Below are positions 6,170 to 19,963 of a DNA stretch of 64,000 nt, in pieces. The notes below the pieces were generated by a model. It ran no database searches, had not been told where the DNA came from, and saw only the letters and a list, made by a program, of their open reading frames with translations. Where the stretch lies: the NCBI RefSeq assembly GCF_058153355.1, contig NZ_CM177019.1, one strand, 5' to 3'. A program made the translations under genes and the position numbers. How positions within the stretch are numbered: position 1 is the stretch's first letter; each line of letters begins with the position of its first letter.

Positions 6170-7531
6170 TTATTTCTCCAGTTGCTTCAGGATACGATTA
6201 ACTTTATCAAAAGTTTCCTGATATTCCGCTTCTTCCTGGCTATCAGCGACAATACCACCCCCAGCGGAACAGTAAATTTGCCCGTTATACGCAGTCAGCG
6301 TGCGGATAGTAATGCTGGTATCCATGTTGCCGCAAAAGCTCAAATAGCCAATGCTGCCGCACCAGGCATTGCGTCGCTGCGGTTCCAGTTCGTCGATAAT
6401 TTCCATAGCCCGTACTTTCGGTGCTCCAGTTATTGAGCCACCAGGAAAAGCTGCGCGCAGCAGATCGCTGGTGTGTAACTGTTCTGGTAGTTGCGCCGTT
6501 ATGGTGCTGACCAGATGATGCACGGCAGGGAAGGGTTCCACCACGAACAGCTCTGGTACTTTTACCGAACCTGCTACGGCAACACGACCGATATCATTAC
6601 GCATTAAATCGACAATCATCAGATTTTCGGCACGATCTTTCGCTGAGTTCGCCAGTTTTTCTGCTTGTTTGCTATCTTCCTGAGGATCGGGCAGGCGTGG
6701 TAGCGTGCCTTTAATCGGGCGGGTCTGGATTTCACTATTATCACAAAGAATAAACCGCTCTGGCGAAAGGCTTAAAATCGCGCCCTGTTCAAGACGTAAA
6801 TAAGCGCTAAATGGCGCGCGGTTGGCCTGATTAAGCTGAAGGAATGCCTGCCATTCATCGCCAGAATAGGTCGCATGGAAACGCTGGGCGAGATTCACCT
6901 GATAGCAATCACCGCTGTGCAGATATTCCTGTACCTGGCGAAATTTTTCGCCGTACAGCTCGCGGGTCATATTGGATTGCCAGTCGGAAGTGAGCGTGAA
7001 ATCTTCCTGCGGCGAGAATTGCTGGCTTTCCAGCCAGGCCCGACGGGCATTGACATCATTATGACTCAGCAAAGAAACTGTTTGACGCTGGTGGTCGACA
7101 ATGAGCGCCCAGTCGTAGATACCCACAGCCATATCCGGCAGAACGATATCTTGCTGCGCAATTTCTGGCAGTGACTCAAAACGGCGGCCCAGATCGTAGC
7201 CAAACAACCCCAGCGCGCCGCCCTGAAATGGCAAATCTTCGTTATGCGCTGGGCGAATGTCTGCGCGATCCAGCACCTGCTGGAGCACCTGTAGCGGGTC
7301 ATCAGTGGTCGTTGTGCGTTTTTCGCTTTCACTAACAACGGTTTCTTTACCGAAAGTGGTTAAAGTGCAAATCGGCTCGGCGACCACAATATCAAAGCGG
7401 CTATATGGATGATCGGCATAGCCGGAGTGTAAAAGCATCGCCCACGGCAGGTGACTTAAGCGGGAGAAATAAAATTCAGCGGCGTCCTGACGCCAGGGTA
7501 AAGTAATCACAGCGGGAGATAACGTCTTCAT
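6170..7531 (-). CDS. pabB: aminodeoxychorismate synthase component I
   Basis: 453-aa [40 protein letters not shown]...; chorismate-binding fold motifs; synteny. Confidence 0.95.
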
Positions 7532-7604
7532 CAGTCCTGACTCTACTGGCTATGTGCCGGGTAGCATGAAATAATTAGCGCCAACAATTTAGCAGGAGTT
7601 AACA

Positions 7605-7784
7605 ATGTTTGCAGGTTTACCTTCACTCACCCATGAACAGCAGCAAAAAGCCGTTGAGCGGATCCAGGAACTGATGGCACAGGGGATGAGCAGCGGCCAG
7701 GCAATCGCGCTGGTGGCAGAAGAGTTGCGTGCTAACCATTCCGGTGAGCGGATTGTGGCGCGATTTGAGGATGAAGACGAGTAA
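7605..7784 (+). CDS. yoaH: UPF0181 small protein
   Basis: 59-aa ORF below the track cut-off: ATG at 7605, [62 protein letters not shown] at 7782-7784; SD-like AGGAG upstream. Confidence 0.85.
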
Positions 7785-7790
7785 CACAAA

Positions 7791-8243
7791 ATGATCCGTA
7801 TCGATTTCGTCACGGATGACGCCCTGTATCTTGATACGGATAGCCTCATCGGCTGGGATTTTTCCGGCATGAACTTACATCGTGCCATTTTTGACGGTAC
7901 GTGCCTGGACGGCGCGCGGTTTAATCATGCGCATCTGCGTAATATCAGTTTTATCAACGCGTCCCTGATTGGGGCCGACCTCTCGTCCAGCGCACTGATG
8001 TGTGCCTGGTTCAACAGCGCCGATCTGACCAATTGTAATTTTGCTCAGTCACGACCCATTGATGCTGATTTTAGGCATGCACGACTTTGTGGGGCAGATT
8101 TTACCGACACCGATTTAAGAGGTGCTAATTTTTCATCGACACATCTTCAGAATGTTTGTTTTAACGGGGCGCATTATGACAAACGAACTGTCTGGCCCGC
8201 AGAGTTTTATCCAAGGATTAACGGGGCTGTGTTGGTTGATTGA
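7791..8243 (+). CDS. pentapeptide-repeat protein (uncharacterized)
   Basis: 150-aa ORF with tandem A(D/N)LXX pentapeptide repeats (ADLSSSALMCAWFNSADLTNCNFAQS...GADFTDTDLRGANFSSTHLQNV); ATG only 6 bp after the yoaH stop, suggesting co-transcription. Confidence 0.7.
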   Translation: MIRIDFVTDDALYLDTDSLIGWDFSGMNLHRAIFDGTCLDGARFNHAHLRNISFINASLIGADLSSSALMCAWFNSADLTNCNFAQSRPIDADFRHARLCGADFTDTDLRGANFSSTHLQNVCFNGAHYDKRTVWPAEFYPRINGAVLVD

Positions 8244-8332
8244 ATTTGGCGGGGTTTATGATGGCAAGAAAAAGACGCTTTTATGTGGTCAACAAAAGCG
8301 CCCTGGTCAATTTTTGCTGATAGAGAATTAAC

Positions 8333-8632
8333 TCAAACCAGTGCTTTGAGTTCTTCCTGCATGTACGACGAAAAGTATTCTGGGTTTTTAATCACAATAC
8401 GTTCACCAGACTCCATTTTTTTTGCCCATCCCACCATTTTTTCCGTGAATCCAGGATTCCAGCCTTCCTGATCGGCTCGCGCAGTAATATCGGCGGAACT
8501 GGCGGGTACACCCAGGTCATGCAAATATTTAAATATTCCCTTCGCCGTACTTTCATTCATAGAACTTGGTGTTGATGCTGATACATCCATGGCACCAATA
8601 AAATCCAGAGCTTTATCTATTACTGCAGGCAT
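8333..8632 (-). CDS. yoaC: DUF1889-family protein
   Basis: ORF 8333-8656; start placed at ATG 8630-8632 (MPAVIDKALDFIGAMDVSASTPSSMNESTAKGIFKYLHDLG...) giving 99 aa, the length I recall for YoaC. Confidence 0.8.
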   Translation of the reverse strand: MPAVIDKALDFIGAMDVSASTPSSMNESTAKGIFKYLHDLGVPASSADITARADQEGWNPGFTEKMVGWAKKMESGERIVIKNPEYFSSYMQEELKALV

Positions 8633-8984
8633 ATTCTTTTCCTTAAAATTAACCATGTGAACAATAAGGCTATATATGACCTTAAATTGCGTCCAATATC
8701 AAAGGGATTATAACGATATCTCATTAGTTAACCTATTGACATTCAGGTGTTTTAAAGGTAGCAGGTCATAGTCTGTTATGTAGTGATGTACCGCAAATTA
8801 ACTGTAAATAGAAACGCTTCAGCCCAGGTTTTCAAGCAAGAAAGATAGCAAGAAGAAAACCAAAGTAGGCTAATCAGGGAGTTAGCATAATAATTTGATT
8901 TTGCTGATTAATATCAATTGTGTATAAATAACAACGAATCGATAAAAATAAAGAATAAATGACCTGAAGGGGTATTACACATCT

Positions 8985-9016
8985 AAAACACTGACCGTTT
9001 TATTCAAAGTCGGCCA
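8985..9016 (-). terminator. stem-loop downstream of yoaB (possible bidirectional terminator)
   Basis: cactgaccg...cggccagtg inverted repeat followed on the minus strand by a short U-run; sits about 60 bp 3' of the yoaB stop. Confidence 0.3.
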
Positions 9017-9072
9017 GTGTTTTCGATAAATTATTGTGCGACTTTTGCCGTGACAGAATTCTTTTTCTGAAA

Positions 9073-9417
9073 TTAAACCGCCGCGATAATCTTAATTTCA
9101 ACCTTGTACTTCGGGTTCATCAAACCCGCTTGTACCGTGCAGCGCACCGGCGCATGACCCGCGACAACCCAGGCATCCCACGCTTTATTCATCGCCGCGA
9201 AGTCGTTTTTATCAGCCAGGAAAATGGTGGCATCCAGAATGCTCGATTTATTGCTGCCCTGTTTTTCCAGCACGGCGTCAATCTGCGCCAGCGTGTTGGC
9301 GGTTTGCTCAAAGGCATTGGCGTCGAGGTTTTCCGGTACACCAGTGTAGTAGAGCGTGTTGTTGTGGATTACTACATCAGACCAGCGGGCTTCAGCATCG
9401 ATACGAACGATAGTCAT
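9073..9417 (-). CDS. yoaB: RidA/YjgF/TdcF-family protein
   Basis: ORF 9073-9465; start at ATG 9415-9417 (MTIVRIDAEARWSDVVIHNNTLYYTGVPENLDANAFEQTANTLAQIDAVLEKQGS...) giving 114 aa. Confidence 0.85.
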   Translation of the reverse strand: MTIVRIDAEARWSDVVIHNNTLYYTGVPENLDANAFEQTANTLAQIDAVLEKQGSNKSSILDATIFLADKNDFAAMNKAWDAWVVAGHAPVRCTVQAGLMNPKYKVEIKIIAAV

Positions 9418-9524
9418 CATTTTGTCCTCATTATCCTTCCATTTTCGTGCTGCAAAGACTGCCACAATGTGAGGTCGCCGTCACCACTTCAACTGGCGAA
9501 AGCGCCCTCATCCTGACATAATCC

Positions 9525-9540
9525 CTGTTCAAATCAACAG
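9525..9540 (+). promoter_or_regulatory. LexA (SOS) box immediately upstream of yoaA
   Basis: CTGTTCAAATCAACAG fits the CTGT-N8-ACAG LexA consensus, 9 bp upstream of the yoaA start; yoaA is a known SOS-regulon gene. Confidence 0.6.
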
Positions 9541-9548
9541 GGGGTAGT

Positions 9549-11459
9549 GTGACGGACGATTTTGCACCAGACGGTCAGCTGGCGAAAGCGATACCAGGCT
9601 TTAAGCCGCGAGAACCACAGCGTCAGATGGCGGTAGCCGTCGCCGGGGCGATAGATAAAAGCCAGCCGCTGGTGGTGGAGGCCGGAACCGGTACGGGCAA
9701 AACCTACGCTTACCTGGCCCCTGCGCTGCGGGCGAAAAAGAAAGTCATTATCTCGACCGGTTCAAAAGCGTTGCAGGATCAGCTCTACAGCCGCGATTTG
9801 CCAACGGTTTCAAAGGCGTTGAAATATACGGGCAACGTGGCGTTGCTGAAAGGGCGCTCTAACTACCTCTGCCTCGAACGTCTCGAACAGCAGGCGCTGG
9901 CGGGTGGCGATCTACCGGTACAAATTTTAAGCGATGTGATCCTGCTGCGCTCCTGGTCTAATCAAACAGTCGATGGTGATATCAGCACCTGCGTCAGCGT
10001 GGCGGAAGATTCACAGGCGTGGCCGCTGGTCACCAGCACCAACGACAACTGCCTTGGCAGCGACTGCCCGATGTATAAAGATTGCTTTGTGGTCAAAGCA
10101 CGCAAAAAAGCGATGGACGCCGATGTGGTGGTGGTAAACCATCATCTCTTTCTGGCGGATATGGTGGTGAAAGAGAGTGGATTTGGCGAACTGATCCCGG
10201 AAGCTGACGTCATGATCTTCGACGAAGCCCACCAGTTGCCGGATATCGCCAGCCAGTATTTTGGTCAGTCACTCTCCAGTCGACAACTGCTCGACCTGGC
10301 AAAAGACATCACCATCGCCTACCGCACCGAATTAAAAGACACCCAGCAGTTACAAAAGTGCGCCGACCGCCTTGCCCAGAGCGCGCAGGATTTTCGCCTG
10401 CAATTAGGTGAGCCAGGTTATCGTGGCAACCTGCGCGAACTGTTAGCTAATCCGCAAATTCAGCGGGCATTTTTACTGCTCGATGACACCCTTGAACTCT
10501 GTTATGACGTAGCGAAATTGTCGCTGGGGCGTTCCGCCTTGCTGGATGCAGCATTTGAACGCGCCACACTTTATCGTACGCGGCTTAAACGGCTGAAAGA
10601 GATCAATCAGCCGGGTTACAGCTACTGGTATGAATGCACTTCGCGCCATTTTACTCTGGCGCTCACGCCGCTTAGCGTGGCGGATAAATTCAAAGAGTTA
10701 ATGGCGCAAAAACCAGGTAGCTGGATCTTCACCTCAGCAACGCTGTCGGTGAACGACGATCTGCATCATTTTACCTCGCGGCTTGGGATAGAACAGGCGG
10801 AGTCGTTGCTATTGCCAAGCCCCTTTGATTACAGCCGCCAGGCATTACTCTGTGTGCCGCGCAACCTGCCGCAAACCAATCAACCGGGTTCCGCTCGGCA
10901 GCTGGCGGCAATGCTGCGACCGATCATCGAAGCCAATAATGGTCGTTGTTTCATGCTTTGTACCTCGCATGCCATGATGCGCGATCTGGCCGAGCAGTTC
11001 CGCGCCACCATGACGCTTCCCGTTTTATTGCAGGGAGAAACCAGCAAAGGCCAACTGTTGCAGCAGTTTGTCAGTGCCGGTAATGCGCTTCTTGTGGCAA
11101 CCAGCAGCTTCTGGGAAGGGGTGGATGTGCGTGGCGATACATTGTCATTGGTGATTATCGACAAGTTGCCGTTTACCTCACCGGATGATCCACTATTAAA
11201 AGCGCGCATGGAAGATTGCCGTTTGCGTGGAGGCGACCCGTTCGATGAAGTACAGCTGCCGGATGCGGTCATTACTCTCAAGCAGGGGGTAGGGCGACTG
11301 ATTCGCGACGCCGACGATCGAGGGGTTTTGGTGATTTGCGACAATCGGCTGGTGATGCGCCCTTACGGCGCGACGTTTCTCGCCAGTCTGCCGCCAGCGC
11401 CGCGCACCCGTGACATTGCCCGTGCGGTTCGTTTCCTTGCGATACCATCCTCCAGGTAA
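9549..11459 (+). CDS. yoaA: DinG-family ATP-dependent DNA helicase (SOS-inducible)
   Basis: 636-aa ORF with Walker A (AGTGTGKT), DEAH box (FDEAHQL) and Fe-S Cys cluster (CLGSDCPMYKDC); GTG start. Confidence 0.93.
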   Translation: MTDDFAPDGQLAKAIPGFKPREPQRQMAVAVAGAIDKSQPLVVEAGTGTGKTYAYLAPALRAKKKVIISTGSKALQDQLYSRDLPTVSKALKYTGNVALLKGRSNYLCLERLEQQALAGGDLPVQILSDVILLRSWSNQTVDGDISTCVSVAEDSQAWPLVTSTNDNCLGSDCPMYKDCFVVKARKKAMDADVVVVNHHLFLADMVVKESGFGELIPEADVMIFDEAHQLPDIASQYFGQSLSSRQLLDLAKDITIAYRTELKDTQQLQKCADRLAQSAQDFRLQLGEPGYRGNLRELLANPQIQRAFLLLDDTLELCYDVAKLSLGRSALLDAAFERATLYRTRLKRLKEINQPGYSYWYECTSRHFTLALTPLSVADKFKELMAQKPGSWIFTSATLSVNDDLHHFTSRLGIEQAESLLLPSPFDYSRQALLCVPRNLPQTNQPGSARQLAAMLRPIIEANNGRCFMLCTSHAMMRDLAEQFRATMTLPVLLQGETSKGQLLQQFVSAGNALLVATSSFWEGVDVRGDTLSLVIIDKLPFTSPDDPLLKARMEDCRLRGGDPFDEVQLPDAVITLKQGVGRLIRDADDRGVLVICDNRLVMRPYGATFLASLPPAPRTRDIARAVRFLAIPSSR

Positions 11460-18149: not shown

Positions 18150-19760
18150 TCAGTTGTCGCCTTTGAATACGGTTCCAGCAGGAAGCACTGGCGTTTTTTC
18201 CAGGGCTTCAACCGGTGTCTGCGGGAGATAATGTTCAACTTGATGAGCCGGAATGTCGGCGTAATCCTGTTTCAGCCAGCGAATAAATCCGCCGACTTTC
18301 ACCAGTAAAATGACGAGGAAGGGAAGGGCTGTGAGCACGACAGTAGTTTTCATCGTTTCCAGCGACGCGCCAGTGAAAAGAATTGAAAGCGGGATCAGGG
18401 TAATTACCACGCACCAGAAAAGACGCAGCCCACGGTCAGGATCGTCACCTTCCTGGAGATTACGCGTACTGGTTGCCGCCATGGTGTAGGCCACCGCATC
18501 CATATGCGAGGCAAGGAAAATAATCATCACGCCCAGGTATGCAGCGAGGAACAATTTACCGGCTGGCAACGACATCAGAACTTGTTGCACAGCTGTTTCG
18601 CCGCCCAGTGTTTCCAGCACCTGTGGGACGTTGATTACGCCATTGATAAACTGATGAATGGCATAGCTTTCCATTACGCCGAAGAAGAACCAGCAACCGA
18701 CGGTGCTGCCGAGGATCAGTCCCCAGATAACTTCTTTAATCTTACGACCGCGCGAAACTCGGGTGACAAACATTGCTACGCCAGGGGTGTATGAGATCCA
18801 CCACAGCCAGTAGAAAACTGTCCAGTTGCGGGTAAATGAACCATCGCCAAGCGGATCGGTGAATAAGCTCATTTGCAGGAAGTTTTGCGTGGTCAGGCCG
18901 ATGGCATTGATGATGCTGTTGGTAATAAATTCGGTTGGACCGACAATCAGCACCAGCAATGGCAGCAGGAACGCGCCCCAGCCAACCATTTTGCTTAGAC
19001 GTTGCAAACCATTGTTGATACCAATCCACGAGCTTAGGCAAAAAATGCCGCCGGAAAGCAGGATCACAAATGCCTGTACGGTAAAGTTATCGGGTAAACC
19101 GGTCAGCGCGGAAAGCCCACGGGTAAAGGTTGCTGCGGTGACAACAAGGGAAATGGTCAGTGCGCCGACAGTGGCGATCAGGAACATCAAATCGACCAGT
19201 TTCCCCCACGGGCCTTGCGGGCGAACGCCGGTAATAGCAGCAATAATGCCGGAAAGGCTCAGCCCTTTATTTTTCCGCACATGAAAGTGATAAGCCATGA
19301 TTAATGAGGCCAGCGTATAAGTTGCCCAGGCGCTGATGCCCCAGTGGAAGAAGGAGTAGGGAACGCTAAATTCGAGTGCCTGTTGTGAACGCGGTGCGAT
19401 ATTTAATCCAGGCGTTTGATAATAATAGGCCCATTCAGCAACCCCCCAATAAAGCGTAGAAGAACCTAAACCTGCACAAATAAACATAAACAGCCAGGAG
19501 AGCGTGCTGTATTCCGGTTTTCCTTCGCCAAGACGAATATTGCCGTATTTACTGGTGGCTAAATAAATCACCAGTCCCATTGCCAGCAAAACCAATACCT
19601 GTACGGCGGAACCTAACGTACGCGTAACAAAAGTGTATATTGCGTTGGCCGCGTCGGCCGATTGTTGTGGGAAAAGGCTTAATGCAGCTGCGATGAAAAG
19701 AATGGCCACCAGGCTGATGCTTATCAACGGCACATCTTTTTTCTTAACATTGCTCATCAT
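18150..19760 (-). CDS. yeaV: BCCT-family transporter
   Basis: 536-aa ORF, multi-pass membrane protein aligning with CaiT/BetT-type N-termini; exact start (19760 vs 19757) uncertain. Confidence 0.85.
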
Positions 19761-19963
19761 GAGTCATCTCCTGGGCATAAAAGCCCGCCTCTGGCTTTTG
19801 CCAGTTGTAATTATTTGCAGGGTATGAGTTGTATGTTGTGTTTAACAAATTGATTATTTACATGTTACATAAATTAAACAATTAAGAATACGGAAAGCCA
19901 TAAAACACGAAACGGAAACAATAAAAGGTGAAATGACGCAGGTTATTTACTGCAAAGAACGAA

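What the first reader, a model, noticed from the sequence alone, without database searches (positions are those of the whole stretch)
7605..8243. Pentapeptide-repeat protein gene tightly coupled to yoaH
A 150-aa ORF made almost entirely of A(D/N)LXX pentapeptide repeats starts 6 bp after the yoaH stop with no SD of its own, suggesting translational coupling in a two-gene unit. I do not recall a pentapeptide-repeat gene at this position in K-12 (yoaH and yoaC are neighbours there), so it may be strain-variable. Pentapeptide-repeat proteins such as Qnr and MfpA are DNA mimics that interact with gyrase/topoisomerases; an unstudied member fused to a conserved small protein is a reasonable target.
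Basis: partly seen in the sequence, partly recalled or inferred. Interest (0 to 1): 0.4.

Follow-up and report, generated by a model that had tools for sequence, protein, structure and literature searches.

The report
Orphan pentapeptide-repeat toxin-immunity gene after yoaH
A real 150-residue pentapeptide-repeat gene sits right after yoaH in this rare E. coli lineage; its relatives sit next to bacterial contact-delivered toxin genes, so it is most likely a stand-alone antidote rather than a Qnr-like gyrase protector.

Summary
ORF 7791-8243 (+) encodes 150 aa with 22 uninterrupted pentapeptide repeats (Pfam PF00805, E 6.7e-22). It starts 6 nt after the yoaH stop and has no Shine-Dalgarno above background. 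Only 3 of 5,426 complete E. coli genomes carry it. K-12 and nearly all E. coli keep about 32 nt of its 5' end with the ATG destroyed, so they lost about 430 bp. Intact orthologues (85-91% aa, same junction, dN/dS 0.12-0.37) occur in Escherichia sp. E1V33, sp. E4742 and E. whittamii.

The Qnr/MfpA reading is not supported. The protein scores 42 bits against a 240-bit Qnr cut-off and 25.5 against 360 for MfpA, and it lacks Qnr's length and loops.

Its true family (31-51% identity, shared N- and C-caps) lies directly downstream of one conserved toxin C-terminal domain. That domain is predicted to have a ParB/sulfiredoxin fold with a DGNHR motif. The pairing occurs on CdiA in Achromobacter and Pseudomonas viridiflava, and on Rhs in Salmonella and Hafnia (reciprocal, 3 of 3 from the toxin side). 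A decayed paralogue sits in the E. coli rhsB immunity array.

Best reading: an orphan immunity gene riding on the yoaH transcript, ancestral in Escherichia and lost from most E. coli. The immunity function is inferred, not tested.

The parts
7605..7784 (+). yoaH (59 aa, UPF0181). It has its own strong SD (AGGAG) and is the upstream gene of the two-gene unit.
   Evidence: PF03701, E 2.8e-29; anti-SD -6.9 kcal/mol. The protein is identical to K-12 YoaH, WP_000457334.1.
7785..7790 (+). 6-nt spacer CACAAA between the yoaH stop (TAA) and the ATG of the pentapeptide-repeat gene. Both ORFs are in the same frame.
   Evidence: The spacing is conserved in Escherichia sp. E1V33, sp. E4742 and E. whittamii.
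7791..8243 (+). Pentapeptide-repeat protein gene (150 aa plus stop), the predicted orphan immunity gene.
   Evidence: The AlphaFold2 model has pLDDT 97.2 and pTM 0.91. dN/dS against orthologues is 0.12-0.37. Family alignment is A5.
7791..7847 (+). N-terminal cap (residues 1-19), predicted as a beta-hairpin. It is shared with the toxin-linked family members (MI.I.F.T.. L.L....L).
7848..8177 (+). 22 uninterrupted pentapeptide repeats (residues 20-129, about 5.5 coils). Family-specific conserved residues H30/R31, R50/N51 and L69/M70 are spaced 20 residues apart (one coil), so they form one stripe down the helix.
   Evidence: (invariant and near-invariant columns).
8178..8240 (+). C-terminal cap (residues 130-150) with the conserved Y-D-x-x-T-x-W-P-x-x-F-x-P motif.
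8272..8304 (.). 13-bp-stem hairpin with T-runs between the convergent pentapeptide-repeat gene and yoaC. It is a probable bidirectional terminator and is conserved in K-12.
8333..8632 (-). yoaC (DUF1889), the convergent neighbour. It is not part of the unit but marks its boundary.
7822..8261 (.). Segment missing from K-12 and from about 99.9% of complete E. coli genomes (a net deletion of about 430 bp that removes all but the first ~32 nt of the gene).
7500..9300 (.). Locally divergent haplotype. It is 68-95% identical to K-12 but 92-98% identical to Escherichia sp. E1V33, inside a window that is otherwise about 97-99% K-12-like.

Best explanation
The ORF is an intact, expressed-by-position gene for a small acidic cytoplasmic pentapeptide-repeat protein. 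It belongs to a family of immunity proteins for one type of contact-delivered polymorphic toxin. That toxin is a roughly 100-aa C-terminal domain with a predicted ParB/sulfiredoxin fold and an invariant GNHRY core inside a DGNHR-type motif (EGNHR in some), carried by CdiA (type V secretion) or Rhs (type VI secretion) proteins. In Escherichia the gene is an orphan: no toxin gene is nearby. It sits 6 nt after yoaH with no promoter or SD of its own. It would therefore be transcribed with yoaH and translated by ribosomes that terminate at the yoaH stop and restart at the ATG. The protein would bind an incoming toxin domain injected by a competitor such as Salmonella, Hafnia, Proteus or Providencia carrying this Rhs tip. 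It would block the toxin's active cleft, plausibly by offering its DNA-like beta-helix as a pseudo-substrate. The gene was present in the common ancestor of several Escherichia lineages and was deleted in the main E. coli lineage. The window's strain either retained the ancestral haplotype or regained it by recombination. What is shown: gene integrity, fold class, family membership, the reciprocal toxin-gene association, the predicted toxin fold, distribution, and the K-12 relic. What is inferred: immunity activity, binding mode, co-transcription and coupling, and ecological benefit.
For: (1) Family. The 20-sequence alignment A5 shows full-length homology at 31-51% identity. It includes the non-repeat N- and C-caps and the family-specific residues NLHR(28-31), LRN(49-51) and LM.A(69-72).

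(2) Context found starting from the pentapeptide-repeat protein. In Achromobacter insolitus, P0243 overlaps by 16 nt the end of a contig-truncated filamentous-haemagglutinin ORF (at least 1,429 aa; L019). P0005 overlaps by 4 nt the end of a CdiA-type ORF that carries an ETENN pre-toxin motif (L007). P0246 is preceded by the last 28 codons of the same toxin, cut off by an IS200-type insertion, at the end of an orphan array behind a 3,604-aa protein (L021/L022). P0004 follows a CdiI_N gene (L006). P0241 lies between a Fil_haemagg_2 fragment and a MafI2 gene (L020).

(3) Context found starting from the toxin. The toxin domain has 196 homologues, named RHS repeat-associated or filamentous hemagglutinin by their sources. 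In 3 of 3 genera examined (Salmonella enterica, Pseudomonas viridiflava, Hafnia paralvei), the next gene overlaps the toxin stop by 1-4 nt. In each case it translates to a family member, and the Hafnia protein is 49% identical to the window protein.

(5) In a neighbour-joining tree of the A5 identity matrix, the Escherichia clade groups with the Hafnia Rhs-linked and Superficieibacter proteins, inside the toxin-linked family.

(6) In Superficieibacter the same yoaH-downstream slot holds a protein that NCBI names SMI1/KNR4 family (an immunity-type superfamily), followed by a 51%-identical pentapeptide-repeat protein.

(7) E. coli itself carries a decayed paralogue in the rhsB orphan array, beside 'NTF2 fold immunity protein' genes.

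(8) The gene is under purifying selection between Escherichia species, with dN/dS 0.12-0.37.

(9) The protein has pI 5.1 and net charge -7, and 18 of 20 family members are acidic (pI 4.3-5.3; the other two are pI 6.4 and 6.8).

(10) The junction with yoaH is conserved in four lineages, and the upstream region shows no SD or promoter-like signal.
Against: No experiment supports immunity for any member of this family; the inference is guilt by association. No toxin gene or toxin remnant lies within 6 kb in any Escherichia or Superficieibacter locus. The function there could therefore have changed.

The Escherichia orthologues lack 10-11 residues (two pentads) that every toxin-linked member has. 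The toxin domains are not consistently basic, so there is no simple charge-complementarity argument for DNA mimicry.

Confidence: 0.6

Rival explanations
1. Qnr/MfpA-like DNA mimic. The protein binds the cell's own DNA gyrase or topoisomerase IV, and modulates it or protects it from quinolone-type poisons.
For: It has a pentapeptide-repeat beta-helix fold and an acidic surface charge. It shows sequence similarity to QnrB1 (E 1e-11) and MfpA (E 8e-6) in the PDB search. Foldseek also finds Qnr, MfpA and AlbG at E about 1e-7.
Against: The similarity is generic repeat similarity. Synthetic solenoids, DotG and cyanobacterial Rfr proteins score better than Qnr. The curated family thresholds are missed by 5- to 14-fold (Qnr 42 against 240 bits, MfpA 25.5 against 360). 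The protein is 150 aa and has no loop insertions in its 22 repeats. The model has only a 3-residue helical turn at the C-terminus, not the dimerisation helix known for MfpA and Qnr. No MfpB-type GTPase gene and no antibiotic-biosynthesis cluster is adjacent. The closest relatives are toxin-linked.
Confidence: 0.08
2. Domesticated gene with a new, YoaH-linked housekeeping or stress role. An ex-immunity gene was captured behind yoaH and now works with or under YoaH, not against toxins.
For: The 6-nt in-frame junction with yoaH is conserved across four Escherichia lineages. Purifying selection has persisted for as long as these species have been diverging. The Escherichia proteins share a derived 10-11-residue deletion. 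In Superficieibacter the homologue is also downstream of yoaH and has gained an extra C-terminal domain.
Against: yoaH is conserved and functions without it in almost all E. coli and in the ten K-12-like contexts sampled. The family-specific conserved stripe (H30/R31, R50/N51, L69/M70) is intact. In Superficieibacter an immunity-type (SMI1/KNR4-named) gene is inserted between yoaH and the pentapeptide-repeat gene, which argues that the site is a landing pad for immunity genes rather than a YoaH partnership.
Confidence: 0.15
3. A functionless relic in E. coli: an intact-looking ORF on a rare haplotype that is drifting towards loss, as has already happened in the main lineage.
For: Only 3 of 5,426 genomes carry it. 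Truncated or frameshifted variants exist in public data (P0003 at 108 aa, P0002 partial). Two non-synonymous and no synonymous differences separate the two E. coli alleles, and dN/dS against E1V33 is 0.76. The rhsB-array paralogue is already a pseudogene.
Against: The ORF is full length in all four E. coli copies and in three other Escherichia species. Interspecies dN/dS is well below 1. All family-invariant residues are kept. The model is very confident, with pLDDT 97.
Confidence: 0.15

Closest known systems
Orphan cdiI / rhsI immunity genes of CDI and Rhs systems in Enterobacteriaceae (general knowledge of the field; Zhang et al. 2012, PMC3482391, for the polymorphic-toxin framework)
   Same: It is a small cytoplasmic protein. 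Its homologues are encoded immediately after, and overlap, the variable C-terminal toxin domain of CdiA or Rhs. Copies occur without a toxin in orphan arrays, and distribution is strain-variable.
   Different: The window copy is not in a cdi or rhs locus at all. It is embedded in a core-genome operon behind yoaH, and it is vertically inherited across Escherichia species. Zhang et al. 2012 list Imm20, Imm27 and Imm-SuFu as the partners of Tox-ParB. The held part of that paper (the first 300,000 of 357,715 characters) never mentions pentapeptide repeats.
Qnr (QnrB1, PDB 2xtw) and MfpA (PDB 2bm4, 6zt4)
   Same: Both are right-handed quadrilateral beta-helices of pentapeptide repeats with an acidic surface. 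Both are protective proteins thought to act by mimicking DNA (mechanism from established literature).
   Different: The protein fails the curated HMM cut-offs. It is 150 aa rather than 183-218 aa, has no Qnr loops and no predicted C-terminal dimerisation helix. Its genomic company is different. Its likely target is an injected toxin, not gyrase.
McbG and AlbG (pentapeptide-repeat self-immunity factors for microcin B17 and albicidin; AlbG is PDB 2xt2)
   Same: A pentapeptide-repeat protein used as an immunity factor against a weapon of bacterial warfare (for structural similarity; roles from the PDB descriptions and established literature).
   Different: McbG and AlbG protect gyrase from small-molecule or peptide poisons and are encoded in the producer's biosynthetic cluster. 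Here the partner is a protein toxin domain with a ParB/Srx-like fold, and the window gene has no producer genes nearby.
Tsi6a of Stenotrophomonas rhizophila and DYE20_11255 of Mycobacterium chelonae (bioRxiv 10.64898/2026.07.13.738213)
   Same: This is a recent report in which the putative immunity protein of an Rhs C-terminal toxin structurally resembles a protein annotated as pentapeptide repeat-containing.
   Different: That toxin (Tse6) is a different domain of unknown function. Homology to the present family was not tested. There is no orphan copy in a housekeeping operon.
Acquired orphan immunity islands in gut bacteria (for example the interbacterial defence gene clusters of Bacteroidales; from general knowledge, not checked in the library)
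   Same: The concept is the same: immunity genes kept without the toxin, protecting against other species' contact-dependent weapons in the gut.
   Different: Those are mobile multi-gene islands. This is a single gene fixed at one chromosomal site.

Membership tests
Pentapeptide repeat protein family (Pfam PF00805) | Tandem five-residue repeats of type A(D/N)LXX that score above the Pfam gathering threshold | tested here: met
   77.1 bits against a 20.2-bit cut-off, E 6.7e-22. 22 consecutive pentads.
Pentapeptide repeat protein family (Pfam PF00805) | Right-handed quadrilateral beta-helix fold | tested here: met
   The AF2 model has pLDDT 97.2, with a beta-bridge every 5 residues. All top Foldseek PDB hits are pentapeptide-repeat structures. 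This rests on a predicted, not a solved, structure.
Qnr family | Scores above the NCBIfam Qnr model (NF033086) cut-off | tested here: not met
   42.2 bits against a 240-bit cut-off. All allele-specific Qnr models score 26-36 bits against cut-offs of 425-500.
Qnr family | About 214-218 aa, with two loops interrupting the repeats and a C-terminal dimerisation helix (known from the QnrB1 structure) | tested here: not met
   150 aa with 22 uninterrupted pentads. The model has only a 3-residue helical turn at residues 142-144.
Qnr family | Protects gyrase or topoisomerase IV from quinolones | not testable with these tools
   Needs MIC and gyrase assays.
MfpA family | Scores above the NCBIfam MfpA model (NF000349) cut-off; encoded with an MfpB-type GTPase operon (from established knowledge) | tested here: not met
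   25.5 bits against a 360-bit cut-off. The neighbours are yoaH and yoaC, with no GTPase.
McbG/AlbG-type self-immunity | Encoded inside the biosynthetic gene cluster of a gyrase poison | tested here: not met
   The flanks are pabB, yoaH, yoaC, yoaB and yoaA.
Polymorphic-toxin immunity protein (CdiI/RhsI type), family level | Homologues encoded immediately downstream of the variable C-terminal toxin domain of CdiA or Rhs, typically overlapping its stop codon | tested here: met
   L019 (16-nt overlap), L007 (4 nt), L023-25 (1 nt), L026-28 (4 nt), L029-31 (4 nt) and L021/22 (toxin remnant directly abutting).
Polymorphic-toxin immunity protein (CdiI/RhsI type), family level | Consistent pairing with one toxin domain family | tested here: met
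   The same ParB/Srx-like domain with a DGNHR-type motif (EGNHR in some) is present in all six toxin-adjacent cases. Starting from the toxin side, 3 of 3 genera have a family member as the next gene.
Polymorphic-toxin immunity protein (CdiI/RhsI type), this gene | Cognate toxin gene adjacent | tested here: not met
   tblastn finds no toxin domain in the 64-kb window or within 6 kb in L001, L005, L008, L009 or L018. It is therefore classed as an orphan, not as part of a toxin-immunity pair.
Polymorphic-toxin immunity protein (CdiI/RhsI type), this gene | Binds and neutralises the toxin | not testable with these tools
   Needs co-expression, binding or competition assays.
Tox-ParB (Zhang et al. 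2012), for the partner toxin | ParB fold with a conserved DGHHR-type motif at the C-terminus of RHS or filamentous-haemagglutinin proteins | tested here: inconclusive

The most novel reading that the evidence does not exclude
This pentapeptide-repeat family is a previously undescribed immunity family that neutralises ParB/sulfiredoxin-fold polymorphic toxins of both CDI and Rhs/T6SS systems, by presenting a DNA-like beta-helix to the toxin's substrate cleft. The Escherichia copy is a domesticated orphan, hard-wired into the yoaH operon by termination-reinitiation coupling. It gives cross-genus protection against Salmonella, Hafnia, Proteus or Providencia Rhs attack, and its loss in the main E. 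coli lineage changed that lineage's susceptibility.
Probability: 0.35. Interest if true: 0.6.

Novelty: new member of a known kind. Interest (0 to 1): 0.45.

Why it matters
If the reading is right, it links two well-studied ideas that have been kept apart: pentapeptide-repeat proteins as DNA mimics, and immunity proteins of contact-dependent toxins. It also gives pentapeptide-repeat proteins, most of which have no known role, a concrete and testable function. It would supply a missing immunity partner for a widespread toxin tip with a predicted ParB/Srx fold, found on Rhs and CdiA proteins of Salmonella, Hafnia, Proteus, Providencia and Pseudomonas. The activity of that toxin tip is itself unknown.

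For E. coli biology it is a clean natural presence/absence polymorphism. There is an intact gene in 3 of 5,426 genomes and in the cryptic Escherichia clades, and a 32-nt relic everywhere else. That polymorphism could be used to test whether orphan immunity genes shape competition among enteric bacteria.

It does not appear to be a quinolone-resistance determinant, which matters for resistance-gene screening that flags any pentapeptide-repeat protein.

Tried and rejected
(1) The exhaustive HMMER search over 1.84 billion representative proteins was swamped by giant multi-repeat proteins: 56,915 hits, with the top ranks taken by 1,000-7,000-aa proteins. Only P0188 (Superficieibacter) was a useful new homologue. 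The alignment-based word-index search was far more productive.

(3) I suspected that the 117-aa C-terminal extension of the Superficieibacter protein is a SUKH (SMI1/KNR4) domain. Pfam at E 10, BLASTP against its SMI1/KNR4-named neighbour, and a PDB sequence search all gave nothing. The idea is dropped and the extension remains unassigned.

(4) Charge complementarity between immunity protein and toxin: the immunity proteins are mostly acidic, but the toxin domains range from pI 4.9 to 10.0. This gives no support either way.

(5) I searched 5,426 E. coli genomes for nucleotide-level homologues of the Hafnia or Salmonella toxin-immunity module. There was no match for Hafnia, and for Salmonella only the conserved Rhs-core part matched.

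(6) Rfam on 7000-9800 at E <= 1 gave no RNA family. PADLOC gave no defence-system model for the pentapeptide-repeat protein, YoaH or YoaC.

(7) Ten alternative contexts of the identical YoaH protein were all K-12-like, so no further variants of the locus were found that way.

(8) Literature searches for yoaH, for pentapeptide repeat with CdiI, Rhs or polymorphic toxin, and for Tox-ParB found no description of this gene or of the pairing. The library is not exhaustive.
Full report
**1. The observation**

The ORF listing gives an ATG-initiated ORF at 7791..8243 (+) of 150 aa, immediately after yoaH at 7605..7784. The six bases between them are CACAAA.

Pfam places the product in Pentapeptide (PF00805, E 6.7e-22, 77 bits against a 20-bit cut-off). 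YoaH falls in UPF0181 and the convergent downstream gene in DUF1889, which is yoaC. Written in register, residues 20-129 are 22 uninterrupted pentads, with L, F or Y at the central position in 21 of them.

The best pairing of the 16S anti-SD with the 22 nt upstream of the ATG is -3.1 kcal/mol. That is no better than the window-wide background of -2.56 +/- 2.36. The values for yoaH and yoaA are -6.9 and -10.7. The scan found no promoter-like site between or inside the two genes. It did find a 13-bp hairpin at 8272-8304 between the convergent ends of this gene and yoaC. The only correction is that the two ORFs are separate, not fused, although they are in the same frame.

**2. Where the window comes from and how common the gene is**

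The window is E. coli. It is collinear with K-12 MC4100 at 95-97% identity overall, and 97-100% in most 300-nt bins.

Of 5,426 complete E. coli genomes, 5,424 match the yoaH side, but only three contain the ORF: NZ_AP027764, NZ_CP027579 and NZ_CP128613. All three have it at the same locus and 99.6% identical to the window. RefSeq calls it 'pentapeptide repeat-containing protein', WP_000618093.1.

In K-12, yoaH is followed after 119 nt by yoaC. The alignment shows that K-12 still has about 32 nt homologous to the start of the ORF. Compare TAACAC--ACTAATCCGTATCGATTTCGTTATAGAAGCCG in K-12 with TAACACAAAATGATCCGTATCGATTTCGTCACGGATGACG in the window. K-12 also keeps the downstream hairpin. Nearly all other genomes match the query up to the same point, window 7810. 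The common E. coli state is therefore a deletion of about 430 bp, not the absence of an insertion.

**3. Orthologues and history**

Intact orthologues occur in the same pabB-yoaH-X-yoaC-yoaB-yoaA synteny with the same 6-nt junction. They are in Escherichia sp. E1V33 (91% aa), Escherichia sp. E4742 (85%) and E. whittamii (85%).

Nei-Gojobori dN/dS between species is 0.12-0.37, which indicates purifying selection.

Between about 7500 and 9300 the window is 68-95% identical to K-12 but 92-98% identical to E1V33. Outside that stretch it is K-12-like and only 83-92% identical to the cryptic clades. The gene thus sits on a roughly 1.8-kb haplotype shared with cryptic Escherichia lineages. Either this haplotype was retained from the ancestor or it was re-imported by recombination; I cannot tell which. 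The gene's GC content (48.6%, GC3 49.7%) is close to the window mean of 50%, so it is not a recent foreign arrival.

**4. Not a Qnr or MfpA**

Sequence hits to QnrB1 and MfpA exist, but they rank below DotG, designed solenoids and cyanobacterial proteins.

Against NCBI's curated models the protein scores 42.2 bits for Qnr (cut-off 240), 26-36 bits for the individual Qnr alleles (cut-offs 425-500) and 25.5 bits for MfpA (cut-off 360).

The AlphaFold2 model is very confident (pLDDT 97.2, pTM 0.91). It shows an N-terminal hairpin, a regular beta-helix and only a three-residue helical turn near the C-terminus. Foldseek against the PDB returns every kind of pentapeptide-repeat structure with no preference for Qnr, MfpA or AlbG. 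The best TM-score, 0.66, is to Rfr23. No gyrase-poison biosynthesis genes and no MfpB-like GTPase are nearby.

**5. The real family and its company**

Below the Escherichia orthologues the next relatives drop to 51-31% identity. They align end to end, including the non-repeat caps and unusual conserved residues: NLHR at 28-31, LRN at 49-51, LM.A at 69-72 and Y-D-x-x-T-x-W-P at 129-136.

I looked up every one of these relatives that sits on a contig long enough to be informative.

- In Achromobacter insolitus the gene overlaps by 16 nt the end of a contig-truncated filamentous-haemagglutinin ORF (at least 1,429 aa), the CdiA position (L019).
- In L007 it overlaps by 4 nt a CdiA-type ORF with an ETENN pre-toxin motif.
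- In L006 it follows a CdiI_N gene.
- In L020 it lies between a Fil_haemagg_2 fragment and a MafI2 immunity gene.
- In L021/L022 it ends an orphan array behind a 3,604-aa protein and is preceded by the last 28 codons of the toxin, which an IS200-type insertion has truncated.

The two complete toxin tips are 66% identical over the 119-120-aa C-terminal stretch aligned.

**6. The reciprocal test**

Searching with that toxin tip found 196 homologues. Their sources name them RHS repeat-associated core domain proteins (Salmonella, Pectobacterium, Proteus, Lonsdalea, P. aeruginosa), filamentous hemagglutinins, or, in one UniRef entry, 'ParB/Sulfiredoxin domain-containing protein'. Gram-positive versions also exist.

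I examined three genera chosen from the toxin side: Salmonella enterica, Pseudomonas viridiflava and Hafnia paralvei. In all three, the next gene overlaps the toxin stop by 1-4 nt. It had no precomputed Pfam hit on record. On translation, each turns out to be a member of the pentapeptide-repeat family. The Hafnia protein is 49% identical to the window protein.

In a neighbour-joining tree of the identity matrix, the Escherichia proteins group with Hafnia and Superficieibacter, inside the toxin-linked family. Finally, 21 E. coli genomes carry a fragmented paralogue in the rhsB locus, downstream of an 'RHS element core protein' and beside 'NTF2 fold immunity protein' genes.

**7. The toxin**

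Zhang et al. 2012 describe 'Tox-ParB' domains with a DGHHR motif on RHS and filamentous-haemagglutinin proteins, and list Imm20, Imm27 and Imm-SuFu as their immunity partners. The held text of that paper, the first 300,000 of 357,715 characters, never mentions pentapeptide repeats (PMC3482391). Whether the present domain is their Tox-ParB or a sister family could not be checked.

**8. How it most likely works**

Shown:
- The gene is intact and conserved.
- The protein is predicted to fold as a beta-helix.
- It belongs to a family whose members are the immediate downstream partners of one toxin domain in both CDI and Rhs systems.
- No such toxin is present in the window or within 6 kb in any Escherichia or Superficieibacter locus.

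Inferred:
- It is an orphan immunity protein.
- It is made from the yoaH transcript by termination-reinitiation.
- It binds the incoming toxin and blocks its cleft.

The conserved residues H30/R31, R50/N51 and L69/M70 are spaced exactly 20 residues apart, which is one turn of the helix. They should therefore line up as a stripe on coils 1-3 and are a candidate interface. The 10-11-residue deletion peculiar to Escherichia lies later, after residue 119. A DNA-mimic mechanism is attractive because the partner has a predicted ParB-like fold and 18 of 20 family members are acidic. The toxins are not uniformly basic, however, so this step is weakly supported.

**9. Rivals**

- A Qnr-like gyrase role is unlikely for the reasons in section 4.
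- A domesticated, YoaH-linked role cannot be excluded. The junction is conserved, the Escherichia proteins share a derived deletion, and Superficieibacter also keeps a homologue behind yoaH. However, Superficieibacter has an SMI1/KNR4-named, DUF7716-containing gene inserted between the two. That looks more like a landing site for immunity genes.
- A drifting relic is possible in E. coli specifically. Loss is near-universal, truncated variants exist, and the two E. coli alleles differ by two non-synonymous and no synonymous changes.

**10. Novelty and verdict**

The gene itself is already annotated generically in RefSeq, and the concept of orphan immunity genes is established. Two things appear to be new, as far as the searchable literature shows. 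One is the assignment of this pentapeptide-repeat family as the partner of a toxin tip with a predicted ParB/Srx fold. The other is the finding that one copy is fixed behind yoaH in several Escherichia lineages and reduced to a 32-nt scar in ordinary E. coli. A 2026 preprint notes a pentapeptide-repeat-like immunity protein for a different Rhs toxin, so the general idea is emerging. I rate it a new member of a known kind, of moderate interest, with the function still to be tested.

Noticed in passing
window 7605-8243: yoaH and the pentapeptide-repeat ORF are in the same reading frame, separated only by TAA CAC AAA. The spacing is conserved in E1V33, E4742 and E. whittamii. Stop-codon read-through would produce a YoaH-pentapeptide-repeat fusion protein.
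   Followed up: partly
window 8333-9072: yoaC is AT-rich (GC 43.7%, GC3 37%). It is only about 88-90% identical to K-12 yoaC but 97-98% identical to yoaC of the cryptic clades. The yoaC-yoaB spacer (8700-9000) is only 68.7% identical to K-12, by far the most divergent bin in the 28 kb compared.
   Followed up: partly
window 8272-8304: A 13-bp-stem hairpin flanked by T-runs lies between the convergent pentapeptide-repeat gene and yoaC. It is conserved in K-12, where it follows yoaH directly, and is a probable bidirectional terminator.
   Followed up: partly
L018 6717-8855 (Superficieibacter, Logan SRR1749577): The same yoaH-downstream slot holds a 353-aa protein (DUF7716 above cut-off; SMI1_KNR4 weak; NCBI name 'SMI1/KNR4 family protein'). 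It is followed by a 284-aa pentapeptide-repeat protein, 51% identical to the window protein, with a 117-aa C-terminal extension of no recognisable family. yoaC is absent.
   Followed up: partly
L044 9505-9870 (E. coli NZ_AP021935, rhsB locus between nikR and yhhJ): 21 complete E. coli genomes carry a fragmented paralogue of the same pentapeptide-repeat family (46% identity over residues 1-95). It lies in the Rhs orphan array next to 'NTF2 fold immunity protein' and DUF6258 genes and an IS3 element. The same piece appears as a 10-kb 'plasmid' record, CP088628.1.
   Followed up: partly
L021 6337-7651 / L022 7166-8480: An IS200-type (Y1_Tnp) transposase has replaced most of the ParB-like toxin gene. 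The toxin's last 28 codons remain directly in front of an intact pentapeptide-repeat immunity gene. This is a natural example of how an orphan copy arises.
   Followed up: yes
window 7899 and 8010-8012 (codons 37 and 74 of the ORF): The window allele (T37, F74) differs from every other orthologue (M or I at 37, L at 74). This exact protein sequence is absent from the 15-billion-protein collection.
   Followed up: partly
window 19633-19855: About 223 bases have no counterpart in K-12 MC4100 at the join of two collinear BLAST blocks. MC4100 annotates yeaV there as an N-terminally truncated pseudogene.
   Followed up: no
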